A stretch of DNA of 9,703 nt from a virus (Duplodnaviria > Heunggongvirae > Uroviricota > Caudoviricetes). Positions 1 through 6,000 of the stretch are shown here, one piece after another. Location: the IMG/VR virus record IMGVR_UViG_2690316187_000001; one strand, given 5' to 3'. Position 1 is the first letter of the stretch; each line of letters starts with the position of its first letter. The position numbers are program-made.

Positions 1-3000
1 GGTGCATTTATCTCCAGCACCAGACTTTCTATCTCAACGCCATACGCTGCATTTTTTGTAACATCCGTCAGCGTCAGCGCATTCAGTCCCAGTGTCAGAC
101 TGTCTTTTATAACCTGGAATGCCGGGCCAGCCACTCCATTCAGTTTCGGAGTAACCGTGGCACTGCCGGCGGTGAACACCAGCTCCAGCGTCTGCCAGTC
201 GTTACCGTAATCGCCGAACTCCCCCAGCTTCGTGTTTCCGGCTTTCCTGTGATGCATCAGATTCACTCTGCCGTCAGTGGTCTGAGTGAAGTACGACATC
301 AGGAACGGATTACCGGTACCCGTCATCGCCACACCATCAGGAACGGGAGCATCCGTATACAGATAAATCCCCAGCCCGAACTGATTGTTGGTCAGTGCGC
401 CTGACAGGCGGAACTTACAGGTCAGTCTGCCGCCCTGTGTCAGCAGGGTAATTGCGTCATCCACCGGATGCGTCAGGGACCAGGTTTTATTGCTCTGCTT
501 GGTGATCTTAAATACACCATCTGACAACTGAATTCCGCCATCCTTAATGCTCCAGCCCTGCGCAGCAGCCTCTCCGGCTGCCGGCAGCAGGGAGATTGTG
601 CGAACGGACGTATCTGCAGACGGACCCGATGGCGTGTTGCCGCCGGGCGAGGGTTTGATTTCCGGTGCCTTACCACTGATGAAGGCTGAGGTGCGCCCGG
701 CTGCGTTCAGAATAGCGGTTGCCAGACGATCCGGAATAATGCTCCTGCGCGCCCATGAACTGAAATGTGTCGGGCGGTTTGATGATACCTGGTTTCCATT
801 CGTTCTCGATGCCGCACCGTAATATCCTGATGCCGGAATATCCGGATCTTCTGTCGGCGCGTTAGTGGCGGTATTGACGCCGTTACCGTCTGTCATGAAG
901 GGTACAAAATAAACGCCATCACTCTCCCTGTTTTTGTACGCCCCGTAAATGGTGTTGTACTGCGTGCCGTAGGTGTTTTTCCAGTAATACGTCGTGTCAC
1001 CACAAATCCACGGCACATTTACAGCACTGCCACCATGACACTGCGCGTTAAACACAGTGAGGTCAGCACGAAACTGCTTCAGCATGGCTGTAAACAGCGC
1101 AGGTTGCTGTGCGTAGGTGGCGGCGCTCATGTCAAACTCTCCCTGCATCCAGCACACCGCCAGCAACACATTTTTCGGGTTCTTCTGTAATGCAGCTTTA
1201 GTGCGCGCAATCAGGTCCTGATATAACGGTTTACCCACACCCCAGCGCGCCGAATCCTGGCTGGCCCCCGCGTCCGCACTGAATGTCCCCTCCGCGCCCT
1301 GGGTGAATGCCGAACCACCACGACAGCATGGTACCAGCAGGATCCCCGCGTTATTCGGGATATACGGAAGCAGTTTTTTGGCAATATGTAAGCCCTGGCC
1401 GACACAGCCATACTGCCCTTTGCTCAGGTCTGCCTTCGGATGATTCAGCGTACTCATATCCTGCACATCATGCAGGCAGTGGTCGGCCGGAATAATATCG
1501 TTATATCTGCAGGCAGCCCCGCCCGGCGTCACTGTACTGCGGCGCGCCAGCTGTTTAATGCGCGGATCCGGAGCATCGTATGAATCCGGCAGCGGAAGCC
1601 CTTCACCGTAAGCCATGGCATTGGACTGCCCGGCCAGTACGATGACGTAGTACCACTCCGGCTCAGTTGCACCACTGACCACCACATCACCTTCTGCTGC
1701 AATCGCCTGCATCAGGGTATAAGGGGTTATGGCCACCGGACTACCAAACGGCTGCCAGCCCTCTTTCAGTTTATGTGTCAGCTTTTCCGCAAGGTCTGAC
1801 GGCGACGCCGCCCTGACAACATCATAATGTTTAATCGACATCGAATTTCTCCCGTGTACAGGAACAGAGTTAAAAAGCCGGAACCGGAATCAAATTACAG
1901 GATGGCCATCTGCCAGTGGCAGGTCATAAAAAAAAGGCCGCGCCATGCGCAGCCAGAACTCACAAGGAAAATGATAGAAGGAAATAACATTAGTGATGTA
2001 CGCATGGCGCCTCCCGCTAAGTTCTGCAATGATCAAACAGAACTCGCTACGTGCCCTTAAAACTCGATCATTTAGCCCCTCCAAGGAGGATTCACCATGC
2101 GGTTGATTTTTTAATAAACAGTAAACAAAAAAGTCAAGGATTATTCATTCTGTTTTTTCATCATCGGCCACAGCAATACCACAATGCCGCAGACCAGAGC
2201 GCCATCAGTCAGTACCAACATTATCCTGCTGGTGAAATCCATCATCACCATCACTAAAAGCAGGATCACAACAGCAAGCAGACACAGTTTATAAAACAAT
2301 GTTCAGAAAACGCATTCAGCATGCCTAAGGTTCTATTCCTACGAATAGCCAACTTGCAACTTAAAATATTATTTATGCAGCCAATTAAATTCTGGTCCTT
2401 ACAATATCAACCTGAAGATTCTTATCTTGTGCTGATTGATAAATGACAAACCTTTTACTACCTGCATTGAAAGAAGTAGACAAAACCAGACAATTATCAT
2501 AACGAGCAAGAACATAATACCAACCATCATTATAATTAATCATTTCATATTCTTTCTTAAACTGTGGTTTGTAATATCCTGTCAGAAATGAAAAAAGCCA
2601 GAAATATGCCACAAAAGCAATCATCACAATCTCAAAAAAATGTTTTTTTATAAATGGCTTATCATAGAAGCATGATACCGATAAAAATCGCCCATAAGAT
2701 CTTATCGAAATTGTAACCGCCAGCGCAATCGCTGCTGACAGTAGCAAAAGAGGTACCTGAATCTTCTGTCTCAATATAGAAAACTCAATAATTGCCGGCA
2801 CAAACAATAATTCCACAGCAAAATAAAGGCGAAATACATTTAGCTCTTGCATAGAATGTTTTCTTTTCACTGCGAAAAAGAATACAACACCAATACCCCA
2901 ACCGATAAGAAATATAGCAATGACGATAACTGCAAAAAATAAACTTCTGGCAACATCATCAACACCTGCACCTACAATCCACCATGGGAAGCCGTAGTAA

Positions 3001-6000
3001 AAAGAAGTACCCCATCCATAGAAATAAGCACTCCCCCATCCAAGGCATCCCATGTAGGCAATAAAAAGTGAAGAACTCCTGAGCAGCGCACCATCCTTCA
3101 TAACCACCCCAATACAAGATGATAACATTGGCTTACAACTCATAACAAAAGCAATTCAATGCCGTCAAGAGGTTACAGGCTAAAAAAACTCTATTACATT
3201 GCAGTCAGCATGTTTACTACACAAATACAATTCAGAGCATAAAAACTACTCGGCGGCAGGTTATTGAGACTCATCAATGACATGTAAAAAACGCCCATTA
3301 TTGATGTCAAGTTTCCCCAAAGTTATTCAAAAAGTCAATATTATGCCGTTAATATGTTGCCATCCGTGGCAATCATGGCGCTAACGTGTGATCGCATTCA
3401 AAATGTTGTCTGCGATTGACTCTTCCTTGTGGCATTGCACAACCAGAGCGTCATACAGCGGCTTAACAGTGCGTGACCAGGTGGGTTGGGTAAGGTTTGG
3501 GATTAGCATCGTCACAGCGCGATATGCGGCGCTTGCTGGCATTCTTGAATAACCGACGCCTTTACATCTTCCGCACTCTTTCTCAGCAACTATCCCCCAC
3601 TGCTCTGTTTTGGCTATATCAACCGCACGGCCTGTACCGTGGCAATCTCTGCATCTTGCGCCCGGCGTAGCAGCACTACGGCAATAATCCGCATAAGCGA
3701 ATGTTGCGAGCACTTGCAGTACCTTTGCCTTAGTATTTCCTTCGAGCTTTGCCACACCACGGTATTTCCCCGATACCTTGTGTGCAAATTGCATCAGATA
3801 GTTGATAGCCTTTTGTTTGTCGTTCTGGCTGAGTTCATGCTTACCGCAGAATGCAGCCATTCCGAATCCGGCTTGTGATTGCGCCATCCCCATAGCAGCC
3901 ATCACATCAGTACCGGAAAGAGAGTCAGAAGCCGTAGCCCGTGGTGAGTCGCTCATCATCGGGCTTTTTGGCGAATGAAATTTAGCTACGCTTTCGAGTC
4001 TCATCGTCTTCCCTTTTTGCCTGGCGTTACCATCAGGACGCCGTTAACTATTACGTGACGCTCACCTTTGCTGTCTCGGTTGTACTTGAGCACTGTTCCT
4101 CTTGCGCAGGAAAGTATCCTTGCCACTTCGGTCTGATTACCTCGTGTCTGGATAAGAAGCTCTGGTATCGTTTGAATTGTGGCGTTCATACGTTCTCCAG
4201 TTCGGTGATTTTTATTCCAAGCCGTCCGCCTGGTACTTTCACACCACGAATTACGCGAATGTCATCGAATTGCTCGTCGTCTTCCGCAAATCCGGCGTGG
4301 ATAAGGGAGTCGAGTAAACCTTTCAGGATGTTATCGAGGTCGCGGCGGCGGGAGTCTGGAACGTCTGCTATGACTTTGATGCGGAGTCGTGATTTGGTGA
4401 AAATATCTAACTTGAGTTGGTGGATGATTTGCTGAACGTCTTTTCGGTATTTCTGGCCTTTATCGCTGATGTAGTATTGGCTTCCCCGTCTTCGCCAGTA
4501 GGTATTCACCGACGGCGGGTATGGAAGCACAAACTGATATTCGTTCATGACTTAATCTTCCCCTCCTTCAGCAGTATCGCCTGCGTCCTGATTACGCCTT
4601 CGAGGTGGTAAAGTCTGGCGTCTTTGTTGTCGAGATTATGGGTGCGTCTGTCGATTTCATCGTGACACGCGCTACAAGCCCATGCGCCGATCAGGTCTTC
4701 AGGCTTCATTCCAGTTCCGCAAATTCCAGCCATCCGGTAATGTGCCAGAACTGTAGTTTCAGGATTGCCATTGCATATGCCGTAAATACGAACCTGGCAT
4801 TCTCTGCCGCGTGCTTCTTTGCGTAGGTTAGCCATTAAGCAGCCTCCCCTGTTACTTTCAGCATTCCGTTATCGAGCAGCTTTCTGGTCAGCCACTGTTG
4901 ACCACGCCCGGTGATTTTTGTGGTGAACGATATCTGTATTCCGTGATTTGTGTTGACCGCTGTTTCTTTCACTGTGAAATAGCCGCGCTCCATATATTCC
5001 TGCATTGGCACATTTCGCCGGGAACCTGAAGCAATAAGGATTTTGTGATCACGCATCCACGCAAACAGTTTGTTTGGACCAATACCAACAACCTTTGCAT
5101 AGTTTCCAATCAAAATTCCGCTGGCCTCGCCAACGCGATCGGCAAACTCAACTTTAGGTGCGGCAATTGCGAGCTGGTTTTCTAGTTGCATTTTCTGCTC
5201 AGCAAGATCAGCAGCAAGGCGTAACGCTTCTGGTAGCGTTTTTGGGATATTAACCGCAGCTTCTTCAAGCTCTCGCCAACGGTCAACAAGACGAGCGGTG
5301 AATTCCGGCGACAACTGGGCAACGACAATAATGCTGTCGCGCTTACCTTGTTCTCCTTCGAAGATGTAATAGCTTACCGGTCGGCCTGCGGTGGGCTTCT
5401 CCCCCATTGGGGGAAAAGCTATTACACCTCGTCCCGCCAGTCGTTCAATAGATTGTTTCACCTTGTCATGACGACTTCCCACCAACTCAGCGATTTCAAT
5501 GCTGGTCATTTTGATGGCGTTGCTATTTATCAGCTCATTCATTGTCATGTCCTCTCATATTGAAAATTCAGCAATAAAAAACCCAGCCGAAGCTGGGTTT
5601 GTTAAGTTGTCAATGGTCAGTAGTAATGCAGTGAAGGAGGTAAACTTACGCTGAAGGATTTGTACAAAAAAACCACCTGAAGGTGGGTTACTGTTACTTG
5701 TCTGAATCATCCAGTTCGTCTGTTTTCACATCCTCAAACCTTGGATGCAGGCGATTCATTTTTGCAATAAAATCTGAATAGTCGTTAGATAGCTTCATAA
5801 TCGTAACGGTTGATGACAGATGCTCTCTTAATTTTTGATATCCAATATTTGGCGTCAGCCCCTGAAACAACTTTGTACCTTTTGAGGCCTTTACGTTCTG
5901 CTTTTTAAGCTCCTCAAGGATGTTTGGTGCCAATCTCTTGTAGACGATATCATTTGTCAAAACGCCAAAATACTGAGGCCGGAAGCGGGGATTTTCCGGC

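What the first reader, a model, noticed from the sequence alone, without database searches (positions are those of the whole stretch)
2385..3338. AT-rich polytopic membrane protein occupies the stx position directly downstream of the late promoter
The first gene after the pR'-like promoter encodes an unrecognised, aromatic-rich protein with about five TM segments, and its GC content is clearly lower than the flanking phage genes, which marks it as acquired cargo. I found no hairpin plus U-run between the predicted start site (about 3303) and the gene, while a strong terminator (1928-1954) lies after it and before nanS-p. If that holds, the gene could be transcribed from pR' without Q, i.e. in lysogens, as expected for a lysogenic-conversion, superinfection-exclusion or abortive-infection factor. 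In Stx phages this exact slot carries the Shiga toxin genes.
Basis: partly seen in the sequence, partly recalled or inferred. Interest (0 to 1): 0.65.

Follow-up and report, generated by a model that had tools for sequence, protein, structure and literature searches.

The report
Prophage cargo gene for membrane protein
This is a real but already catalogued, uncharacterised membrane-protein gene (TfpB/STM1630 family) that lambda-like prophages of E. coli carry as optional cargo where Shiga-toxin phages carry stx; it probably has its own promoter, so it is an ordinary "moron" whose function is still unknown.

Summary
An AT-rich ORF (36% GC; flanks 51-55%) on the minus strand encodes a polytopic, aromatic-rich membrane protein directly downstream of a lambda-type Q gene and a pR'-like promoter. 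933W and a Stx1 phage carry stxAB in the same Q-to-nanS-p slot.

The protein is not unrecognised. It is 100% identical to WP_001302581.1 of O157:H7 EDL933 and to a phage 434 gene. It belongs to Pfam PF27470 ("TfpB"), PHROG 1521 and RefSeq's "STM1630 family". About 680 of 5426 complete E. coli genomes carry the module. The likely start is M15 (238 aa, not 252).

The leader does hold a terminator remnant (3261-3241, dG -2.2, U5). The homologous hairpin is intact (dG -10.2, U8) in the Q82-type version of the module (phage 434, 618 genomes). pR' read-through is therefore plausible here.

It is not needed, though. A -35-like TTGAC(G/T) lies 66-70 nt upstream of the start codon in four divergent lineages, including an ETEC LT-plasmid copy. 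That points to a self-contained moron with its own promoter.

No fold, PDB, BFVD or PADLOC match exists, so function stays unknown. The predicted topology puts the conserved parts on the periplasmic side. Expression in lysogens is untested.

The parts
3381..4004 (-). Lambda-type late antiterminator gene Q (207 aa)
   Evidence: Pfam Antiterm PF03589, E=1.2e-57. The 3' end of Q plus pR' is 91% identical to lambda over 156 nt.
3297..3338 (-). pR'-like late promoter with qut site. -35 TTGACT is at 3338-3333, followed by a 17-nt spacer holding a Q-binding-element homologue. -10 GAAACT is at 3315-3310, the start site is about 3303, and a -10-like AATAAT lies at 3302-3297.
   Evidence: Alignment with lambda. 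Coordinates. Function is inferred by homology only.
3241..3261 (-). Eroded remnant of a tR'-type intrinsic terminator (ACCTGCCGCCGAGTAG + T5)
   Evidence: It aligns with the intact terminator ACCCGCTGCCGAGTGGGT + T8 of phage 434 and two Q82-type prophages. Stem dG is -2.2 here against -10.2 there. GenBank annotates the 434 element as a terminator.
3119..3168 (-). Candidate promoter(s) belonging to the gene itself. One is -35 TTGACG (3168-3163), 18 nt, TGt-TATGAG (3144-3139). A second promoter-like site is TTGTTA (3148-3143), 18 nt, TGt-TATCAT (3124-3119).
   Evidence: CTTGAC is the only invariant 6-nt block in the 100 nt upstream of the start codon across four lineages that share 57-68% protein identity. 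The consensus scan flagged the second site. No experiment supports either.
2385..3101 (-). TfpB/STM1630-family membrane protein gene. It is 238 aa from M15, with SD-like GGGGTGG at 3110-3104. The longest ORF starts at 3143 (252 aa) and RefSeq also uses 3128 (247 aa).
   Evidence: ORF. PHROG 1521, E=2e-154. PF27470 on all homologues. dN/dS 0.05-0.13. AlphaFold2 model with pLDDT 79 and pTM 0.73: five helices plus a C-terminal beta domain.
2141..2299 (-). DUF3927 / TciB-like small membrane protein gene (52 aa, TTG start)
   Evidence: Pfam PF13064, E=1.4e-14. PHROG 1470. Annotated identically in RefSeq and in phage 434. Not found next to the Salmonella or ETEC relatives of the main gene.
1925..2130 (-). 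PasD/STnc100-like small RNA, ending in the strong terminator. A -35-like TTGACT lies at 2137-2132.
   Evidence: STnc100 covariance model scores 37.7 bits, below the gathering score of 47. Clear STnc100 copies sit at the same position in 933W (208 bits), a Stx1 phage (191 bits) and EDL933 (145 bits). A preprint places pasD directly upstream of the esterase gene in phage 2B8, which is 98.5% identical to this stretch.
1928..1954 (-). Strong intrinsic terminator (GGCTGCGC-ATG-GCGCGGCC + T8)
   Evidence: dG -14. It is the first canonical terminator downstream of pR' in this prophage.
1..1841 (-). 5' part of nanS-p (DUF1737 / SASA sialate O-acetylesterase), running off the window
   Evidence: Open frame of 613 codons from the ATG at 1841. 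RefSeq product 'SASA family carbohydrate esterase'.

Best explanation
The feature is a moron, meaning optional cargo inserted in the late operon of a lambda-like prophage between Q/pR' and nanS-p. This is the slot where Stx phages carry stxAB.

It encodes a 238-aa inner-membrane protein of the uncharacterised TfpB/STM1630 family (PF27470, PHROG 1521). The predicted topology is N-terminus in the cytoplasm, five transmembrane helices, and a small C-terminal beta domain in the periplasm. The most conserved parts are the aromatic and glycine-rich first helix, the GFPWW loop and the start of the beta domain. They face the periplasm.

The gene most likely travels with its own sigma-70 promoter, about 67 nt upstream of the start codon. 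If so, it can be made in lysogens without Q. In this lambda-Q lineage, read-through from pR' may add to that, because the tR'-type terminator in the leader has decayed. After induction, Q-modified polymerase would transcribe the gene at a high rate.

What the protein does is unknown. My best guess, held at low confidence, is a lysogenic-conversion factor acting at the periplasmic face of the inner membrane, either in envelope remodelling or in exclusion of incoming phage DNA.

Shown: the gene, its family, the slot, its composition, purifying selection, the terminator decay and the conservation of the promoter-like block. Inferred: promoter activity, read-through, topology and function.
For: - Identity and spread. 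The 1651-nt module is found at >=80% coverage in 682 of 5426 complete E. coli genomes. It is also in phage 2B8 and phage 434, and the protein is identical in EDL933.
- Family. PHROG 1521 and PF27470 on every homologue. The family is small, with 72 representatives at 50% identity among 1.84 billion proteins.
- Real gene. dN/dS is 0.05-0.13.
- Cargo nature. GC is 36% against 51-55%. Lambda shows only orf-64 between Q and S. The gene lies in the roughly 5.5-kb segment replaced in the viable phage 434B.
- Varied contexts. Relatives lie after four different Q types including one in Yersinia, and after tail-fibre genes in C. freundii. Others lie beside eltAB on ETEC plasmids, near STb, beside an sseJ-like gene in Salmonella, and beside LpxR.
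- Slot. 933W and YYZ-2008 have Q, stxAB, STnc100, nanS-p.
- Own promoter. CTTGAC is the only invariant block upstream of the start codon in four lineages with 57-68% protein identity, with a TGn-(T/A)AT element 18 nt downstream. The Salmonella relative STM1630 has its own mapped start site and -10 box.
- Terminator decay.. The decayed allele is stable, at >=99% identity in 557 genomes.
- Topology. Loops assigned to the cytoplasm hold 9 K+R, and those assigned to the periplasm hold 1.
Against: - No transcript data. The only genome-wide EDL933 table I could read gives zero reads in all eleven conditions for the CP-933M Q homologue and the ORF after it. That looks like loss of multi-mapping reads rather than silence, but I could not prove it.
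- The candidate -10 (TATGAG) lacks the conserved final T, and the consensus scan did not call that site. Promoter-like sites in the region were no more frequent than in shuffles (3 found vs 4.6 expected).
- The TTGAC block is absent at that position in the Citrobacter, Salmonella, Klebsiella, Shigella and Yersinia copies.
- AT-rich acquired DNA is often silenced by H-NS (general knowledge). The Salmonella relative is grouped with SPI-2 co-regulated genes and was picked for study from intra-macrophage RNA-seq data, so expression may be conditional.
- Function is a guess. There is no structural or sequence match. Deleting STM1630 gave no macrophage-replication defect. A hypermotility phenotype from one screen was re-examined by a second study that attributes some of that screen's phenotypes to possible polar effects.
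Confidence: 0.55

Rival explanations
1. The gene has no promoter of its own and is made in lysogens because constitutive pR' transcripts run through the decayed leader terminator. They would end at the strong terminator at 1954-1928, giving a roughly 1.37-kb Q-independent mRNA covering the membrane protein, DUF3927 and the sRNA.
For: The pR' elements are homologous to lambda's. Lambda pR' is described as constitutively active, and the Stx-phage pR' is predicted to be (Sy et al. 2020). The only hairpin plus U-run in the leader is weak (dG -2.2, U5), against the intact homologue (dG -10.2, U8). The decayed allele is fixed in 557 genomes at >=99% identity. The next canonical terminator is at 1954-1928.
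Against: The -10 is GAAACT, only 3 of 6 consensus positions and without the first T, so basal activity may be low. The 200-nt untranslated, AT-rich leader could be subject to Rho or H-NS, which I did not test. The same module keeps an intact terminator in 618 genomes. Copies on plasmids and chromosomal islands have no pR' at all yet keep a promoter-like block. Read-through therefore cannot be the family's general way of being expressed. It may still add to expression here.
Confidence: 0.3
2. It is a true late gene, silent in lysogens and made only after Q-dependent antitermination. It would then work in the lytic cycle, for example by modifying the membrane around the time of lysis together with DUF3927.
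For: It is the first gene of the late operon, on the same strand as the lysis genes. In the Q82-type version it lies behind an intact terminator. PHROGs labels its DUF3927 neighbour 'TciB-like inhibition of cell division'.
Against: Phage 434B lacks the segment and is a viable, propagated clear-plaque isolate. Lambda has no such gene between Q and S. Relatives sit on ETEC plasmids and on Salmonella and Citrobacter chromosomes with no phage lysis genes nearby. DUF3927 does not accompany those relatives. There is no match to holin, spanin or endolysin families.
Confidence: 0.15
3. It is a superinfection-exclusion or anti-phage defence protein. It would sit in the inner membrane and block DNA entry from other phages, or trigger abortive infection.
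For: It is a polytopic inner-membrane protein encoded by a prophage, with its conserved surface predicted to face the periplasm. It is dispensable cargo. The general precedent is prophage-encoded membrane exclusion proteins such as P22 SieA, T4 Imm, HK97 gp15 and lambda RexB (from my own knowledge, not tested here).
Against: No hit in PADLOC, and no sequence or fold similarity to any solved or viral protein. Many copies lie outside prophages, next to toxin or effector genes. The Salmonella relative is grouped with SPI-2 co-regulated genes, which fits host interaction better than phage defence.
Confidence: 0.2
4. It is a virulence-linked envelope factor that works with neighbouring cargo. One version has it linked to lipid A or LPS remodelling with LpxR and PmrD. 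Another has it linked to release of the adjacent toxins.
For: It recurs next to LpxR in three different arrangements, once with PmrD as well. It also lies beside eltAB, STb and an sseJ-like gene.
Against: This window has no LpxR or toxin gene. The adjacency may only reflect shared use of the same cargo slots and AT-rich islands. There is no biochemical clue from sequence or fold.
Confidence: 0.15

Closest known systems
CPT_434_68 'putative membrane protein' of coliphage 434 (OL657226), and WP_001302581.1 of E. coli O157:H7 EDL933
   Same: The protein sequence is identical (238/238 by tblastn). The downstream module is the same: DUF3927, PasD/STnc100-like sRNA, nanS-p.
   Different: Phage 434 has a Q82-type antiterminator and promoter, with an intact terminator in the leader. 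The window and one EDL933 copy have a lambda-type Q and the decayed terminator.
STM1630 of Salmonella Typhimurium (RefSeq 'STM1630 family protein'; Pfam PF27470 'TfpB')
   Same: Same family and length, 46% identity, same conserved N-terminal aromatic motif and C-terminal domain. It also lies in AT-rich acquired DNA next to a virulence gene.
   Different: It is chromosomal, beside an sseJ-like gene, not in a prophage late operon. It has its own mapped promoter and is listed among genes co-regulated with SPI-2. Its upstream sequence lacks the TTGAC block seen here. Its function is also unknown.
Shiga toxin genes stxAB in 933W-type and Stx1 phages, as occupants of the same slot
   Same: Cargo placed between Q/pR' and the STnc100-type sRNA plus nanS-p.
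   Different: The product is unrelated. In 933W several annotated terminators and three tRNA genes separate pR' from stx2, so stx2 depends on Q. Here no intact terminator precedes the cargo, and the cargo seems to carry its own promoter.
Morons of lambdoid phages (Hendrix's concept; lambda bor and lom; DLP12 nmpC downstream of Q). Recalled from my own knowledge.
   Same: An extra gene between conserved phage genes, with deviant base composition, a likely promoter of its own, and no role in plaque formation.
   Different: Expression from the repressed prophage, which is part of the concept, has not been shown. No clear terminator immediately follows the gene; only a weak hairpin with U4 lies at about 2330-2307.
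Lambda 6S RNA and StxS, the short pR'-to-tR' transcripts
   Same: The same kind of promoter, described as constitutive in lambda and predicted so for Stx phages, with a terminator downstream that Q overrides.
   Different: In lambda tR' lies about 194 nt from the start (my own knowledge). In Stx phages pR' and tR' are 258 nt apart. Here the first canonical terminator is about 1.37 kb away and two protein genes lie in between.

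Membership tests
Pfam PF27470 (TfpB) / RefSeq 'STM1630 family' / PHROG 1521 | Significant full-length match to the family profile | tested here: met
   PHROG 1521, E=2.1e-154 over residues 31-252. The 90%-identity cluster that contains this exact sequence, and all 108 homologues, carry a precomputed PF27470 hit. The family name 'TfpB' appears. The local Pfam and NCBIfam copies lack the model. RefSeq labels a near-identical copy 'STM1630 family protein'.
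Pfam PF27470 (TfpB) / STM1630 family | Shared architecture: conserved AYxYGWGxSxYYGFPWW motif, several transmembrane helices, and a C-terminal YKPQxKKEY...WYYVLARY beta domain | tested here: met
   Alignments A1-A3 and the AlphaFold2 model.
Moron (lysogenic-conversion cargo of a temperate phage) | Present in some but not all closely related phages, at a boundary between conserved genes | tested here: met
   No such gene between Q and S in lambda. Inside the region replaced in 434B. The slot holds stxAB in 933W and YYZ-2008.
Moron | Base composition different from the surrounding phage genes | tested here: met
   36.3% GC against 50.6% (Q) and 55.2% (nanS-p).
Moron | Own promoter and own terminator | tested here: inconclusive
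   A conserved -35-like block with an extended -10-like element is present, but the -10 is poor and there is no experimental start site. Only a weak hairpin with U4 follows the gene.
Moron | Expressed from the repressed prophage | not testable with these tools
   The only table I could read shows zero reads for the likely EDL933 copy in all conditions, probably a multi-mapping artefact.
Lambda-type late control region (pR', qut, tR') | -35 and -10 hexamers, a Q-binding element between them, and a -10-like pause element just after the start site | tested here: met
   Alignment with lambda: TTGACT identical, spacer 13 of 17 identical, GAAACT vs TAAATT, AATAAT vs AACGAT, followed by GGG in both.
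Lambda-type late control region (pR', qut, tR') | An efficient intrinsic terminator (tR') shortly downstream of pR', before the first late gene | tested here: not met
   Only the decayed hairpin at 3261-3241 is present (dG -2.2, U5). The first canonical terminator is at 1954-1928, after two genes.
Known anti-phage defence or superinfection-exclusion proteins | Sequence match to a described defence family | tested here: not met
   No PADLOC hit at E<=1. No PDB or BFVD similarity. The function itself cannot be tested with these tools.
Phage lysis proteins (holin, antiholin, spanin) | Match to a lysis-protein family | tested here: not met
   No Pfam, NCBIfam or PHROG lysis family matched the protein. 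The prophage's holin, endolysin and lysis-protein genes lie further downstream.
Rfam RF02076 STnc100 (the downstream sRNA) | Covariance-model score at or above the gathering threshold of 47 bits | tested here: not met
   37.7 bits over the full model. True STnc100 copies occupy the same position in 933W, YYZ-2008 and EDL933 at 145-208 bits. The window copy is better called PasD-type, by synteny with phage 2B8.

The most novel reading that the evidence does not exclude
Decay of the tR'-type terminator in the lambda-Q lineage may be a selected switch. It would turn the Q-dependent cargo slot into an operon transcribed in lysogens (membrane protein, DUF3927, PasD-type sRNA). In that reading the TfpB family is a dedicated envelope partner of horizontally acquired toxin and effector loci (the Stx slot, LT, STb, SseJ, LpxR), for instance in toxin release, envelope remodelling or immunity. 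That would give this widespread orphan family its first function.
Probability: 0.12. Interest if true: 0.7.

Novelty: new member of a known kind. Interest (0 to 1): 0.35.

Why it matters
The gene sits in the best-known cargo slot of lambda-like prophages, and an identical copy is in O157:H7 EDL933 and in the classic phage 434. Relatives lie next to the LT and STb enterotoxin genes and next to Salmonella sseJ. Nobody knows what the family does.

If the protein is made in lysogens, it is a candidate lysogenic-conversion factor in major pathogens. Nature also supplies a matched pair for testing how late-operon cargo escapes Q control: an intact terminator in 618 genomes and a decayed one in 572.

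As it stands, the finding mostly re-describes a catalogued orphan gene.

Tried and rejected
- Origin of the name 'TfpB'. Four literature searches found only unrelated type IV pilus proteins and chemistry acronyms. My recollection that the name comes from the Moraxella pilin-inversion locus found no paper and is unverified.
- Second T-run in the leader. 3188-3182 (T7) is not preceded by an adjacent stable hairpin, so I rejected it as a terminator.
- Small ORF inside the sRNA. MRTSLML... (36 aa, ATG at 2005, good SD GGGAGG) is broken by frameshifts in phage 434 and other copies, so I rejected it as a gene.
- DUF3927 as an obligate partner. It is absent next to the Salmonella and ETEC relatives, so I rejected that idea.
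- tRNA genes. None are present, unlike in 933W.
- Wider genome survey. One scan failed for lack of conserved columns, and the other returned only five loci.

Full report
**What the window is.** All long ORFs lie on the minus strand and form the early-right and late-control region of a lambda-like prophage. In order they are O, P, ren, NinB, a P63C-domain protein, a KilAC antirepressor, DUF1364, RusA, NinH and Q, followed by the finding, a DUF3927 gene and the start of nanS-p. The Q protein matches Pfam Antiterm at E=1.2e-57. The 3' end of Q and the promoter after it are 91% identical to lambda.

**Checking the observation.**
- The ORF at 2385-3143 is real.
- Its GC content is 36.3%, against 50.6% for Q and 55.2% for nanS-p.
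- F, Y and W make up 20.9% of the residues. Hydropathy analysis and the structure model both give five helical hydrophobic segments.
- dN/dS against relatives is 0.05-0.13, so the protein is under purifying selection.
- The start codon needs correcting. Every homologue begins at the position of M15, which is preceded by GGGGTGG. The protein is therefore most likely 238 aa, with its ATG at 3101.
- The pR' call is sound. The -35 TTGACT (3338-3333) is identical to lambda's and the spacer carries a close copy of the Q-binding element. The -10 is GAAACT (3315-3310), and a -10-like AATAAT followed by GGG sits where lambda has its pause-inducing AACGAT-GGG.
- Homology to lambda stops about ten bases after the start site.
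- The terminator at 1954-1928 is strong: an 8-bp stem with 7 GC pairs, dG -14 and U8.

**The slot.** Phage 933W reads Q, pR', annotated terminators, three tRNA genes, stxA2B2, then a yjhS/nanS-p homologue, then S and R. Stx1 phage YYZ-2008 reads Q, stx1AB, nanS-p, holin. In both, an STnc100 sRNA lies between stxB and nanS-p at 208 and 191 bits. The window has a weak STnc100-like match in the same place, at 37.7 bits against a gathering score of 47. The cargo slot is therefore bounded on the left by Q/pR' and on the right by this sRNA, its terminator and nanS-p.

**The protein is catalogued, not unrecognised.**
- It matches PHROG 1521 (unknown function) at E=2e-154.
- All 108 homologues in the large protein collection carry a precomputed hit to Pfam PF27470, which the contig tool names 'TfpB'. 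The local Pfam and NCBIfam copies lack this model.
- RefSeq calls some copies 'STM1630 family protein'.
- The exact protein is WP_001302581.1, present in O157:H7 EDL933 and identical in the classic coliphage 434.
- The 1651-nt module occurs at >=80% coverage in 682 of 5426 complete E. coli genomes.
- The family is small and enterobacterial, with 72 representatives at 50% identity among 1.84 billion proteins.

**Structure.** A first model built from close homologues was poor. With 48 sequences, including distant relatives, AlphaFold2 gave pLDDT 79 and pTM 0.73. The model has helices at 10-36, 47-78, 89-111, 116-136 and 155-181, then a five-stranded beta domain at 184-235. Nothing similar is known:
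- Foldseek against BFVD and PDB gave no hit at E<=0.001.
- A profile search of PDB sequences found nothing.
- PADLOC found nothing.

Loops that would be cytoplasmic in an N-in topology hold 9 K+R, and the opposite loops hold 1. I therefore infer an N-in, five-span protein whose C-terminal beta domain is periplasmic. The best-conserved segments are the aromatic first helix, the GFPWW loop and the start of the beta domain. They face the periplasm.

**The leader and the terminator question.** The same module exists with two different left ends.
- In phage 434 and in two Q82-type prophages, a Q82-type gene and promoter are followed after about 50 nt by ACCCGCTGCCGAGTGGGT plus seven or eight T. GenBank annotates this element as a terminator, and its stem folds at dG -10.2.
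- In the window and in EDL933 the homologous stretch reads ACCTGCCGCCGAGTAG plus five T (3261-3241). Only four base pairs are left (dG -2.2) and the U-tract is shorter.

Both versions are common. The lambda-Q version with the decayed hairpin is in 572 genomes, 557 of them at >=99% identity. The Q82 version with the intact terminator is in 618 genomes. The other T-run in the leader (3188-3182) has no adjacent stable hairpin. It missed the remnant, and it missed the fact that sister prophages keep the terminator. Whether pR' transcripts really reach the gene is untested. This pR' has a weaker -10 than lambda's, and Rho or H-NS could act on the 200-nt AT-rich leader.

**A promoter of its own.** I compared the DNA upstream of the start codon in lineages that share only 57-68% protein identity and sit in unrelated surroundings:
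- this prophage;
- a prophage with another Q type;
- an ETEC plasmid, where the gene lies 866 bp from eltAB and is transcribed divergently;
- a chromosomal island.

CTTGAC is the only invariant 6-nt block in the 100 nt upstream. It always lies 66-70 nt before the start codon, and 18 nt downstream of it there is a TGn-(T/A)AT element. In the window this is TTGACG at 3168-3163 and TGt-TATGAG at 3144-3139. A second promoter-like site, TTGTTA-18-TGtTATCAT (3148-3119), was picked up by the consensus scan. The Salmonella relative STM1630 has an experimentally mapped start site and -10 box of its own. Copies in Citrobacter, Salmonella, Klebsiella, Shigella and Yersinia lack the TTGAC block at this position. 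The scan found no excess of promoter-like sites over shuffles. This is therefore comparative evidence, not proof. If it is right, the upstream ATGs at 3143 and 3128 lie inside or just after the promoter, which fits the M15 start. The gene would then be a self-contained unit that needs neither Q nor pR'.

**Where relatives live.**
- After Q genes of four types, including one in Yersinia enterocolitica.
- After the tail-fibre genes of a Citrobacter freundii prophage.
- Beside eltAB on ETEC plasmids, flanked by IS elements.
- Near an STb gene.
- Beside an sseJ-like gene in Salmonella.
- Beside LpxR in three different arrangements, once with PmrD.
- In a second subfamily in Klebsiella, next to integrase, umuDC and a SASA esterase.

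Phage 434B is a propagated clear-plaque isolate of 434 in which about 5.5 kb, including Q, the late promoter and the lysis region, was replaced by DLP12 DNA. The GenBank record marks that replaced region, and it includes this gene. The gene is therefore dispensable for phage growth. All of this is the behaviour of a moron.

**What is known about function.** Very little.
- STM1630 appears in a list of genes co-regulated with SPI-2.
- It was chosen for study from D23580 RNA-seq results, and its deletion did not reduce replication in macrophages.
- One screen scored the deletion as hypermotile. A follow-up study re-made the deletion without the resistance cassette and notes that some of that screen's phenotypes may have been polar effects.
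- I found no study of the E. coli gene.

The sRNA at the 3' end of the module is expressed in uninduced cultures:
- STnc100 copies reach RPKM values of roughly 100-1900 in EDL933, and one copy was confirmed by Northern blot.
- PasD1 and PasD2 were detected by Northern blot in EPEC, with Hfq-dependent stability.
- A 2026 preprint places pasD directly upstream of the esterase gene in phage 2B8, which is 98.5% identical to this stretch.

That sRNA has a promoter-like TTGACT of its own at 2137-2132, so its expression says nothing firm about the upstream genes.

**Verdict.** The finding is a correct description of a real gene in a well-known cargo slot. The gene is already catalogued and widespread, and its presence is not surprising. 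What this work adds:
- the corrected start codon;
- the family assignment;
- the decayed-versus-intact terminator pair;
- the conserved promoter-like block;
- the predicted topology;
- the recurrent neighbourhood of toxin, effector and lipid A genes.

The most likely reading is a self-promoted moron encoding an inner-membrane protein that acts on the periplasmic side, with pR' read-through as a possible extra input in this lineage. Function remains open.

Noticed in passing
window 2130-1925 (-), terminator 1954-1928, -35-like TTGACT at 2137-2132: A PasD/STnc100-like sRNA lies between DUF3927 and nanS-p. It scores 37.7 bits against RF02076, below the gathering score. Bona fide STnc100 copies (145-208 bits) occupy the same position after stxB in 933W and a Stx1 phage and in EDL933, there followed on the opposite strand by AsxR or AgvB. 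Phage 2B8, 98.5% identical here, is cited in a 2026 preprint as carrying pasD at this spot.
   Followed up: partly
window 2005-1895 (-): A 36-codon ORF (MRTSLMLFPSIIFLVSSGCAWRG...) with a strong SD (GGGAGG) runs through the sRNA and its terminator hairpin. Phage 434's annotation calls a CDS here a 'putative membrane protein'. The frame is broken in phage 434 and several other copies, so it is probably not a gene.
   Followed up: yes
window 2299-2141 (-): A DUF3927 / TciB-like 52-aa hydrophobic ORF with a TTG start follows the main gene. It accompanies the main gene in the prophage module but not next to the Salmonella or ETEC relatives, and it appears frameshifted in an E. albertii copy.
   Followed up: partly
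window 6928-6851 and 6761-5694 (-): RefSeq annotates a truncated NinE fragment just upstream of a lower-GC (42.7%) P63C-domain gene. The P63C and KilAC antirepressor block therefore looks like another insertion into the nin region.
   Followed up: no
L005-L008, about 2987-5714 (ETEC plasmids): A 59%-identical relative lies 866 bp from the heat-labile enterotoxin operon eltAB and is transcribed divergently. The unit is flanked by IS elements, with an STb gene about 3 kb away. The relative keeps the same TTGACG block upstream.
   Followed up: partly
L003 310-1269, L018, L019, L022-L024, L028: The lipid A deacylase gene lpxR recurs next to this gene family in three different arrangements, once with pmrD. 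This hints either at a shared cargo slot or at a functional link.
   Followed up: no
L013 (contig labelled MAG: Veillonella sp.): A 3-kb contig assigned to a Veillonella metagenome bin carries this E. coli prophage module at 100% protein identity. It is almost certainly a binning error.
   Followed up: no
window 3149-3136 (-): TTGTTATGAGTTGT fits the lambda CII box pattern TTGYN6TTGY, and phage 434's record annotates it as a possible CII site. It overlaps the candidate promoters of the gene. If real, it would tie expression to the establishment of lysogeny.
   Followed up: no
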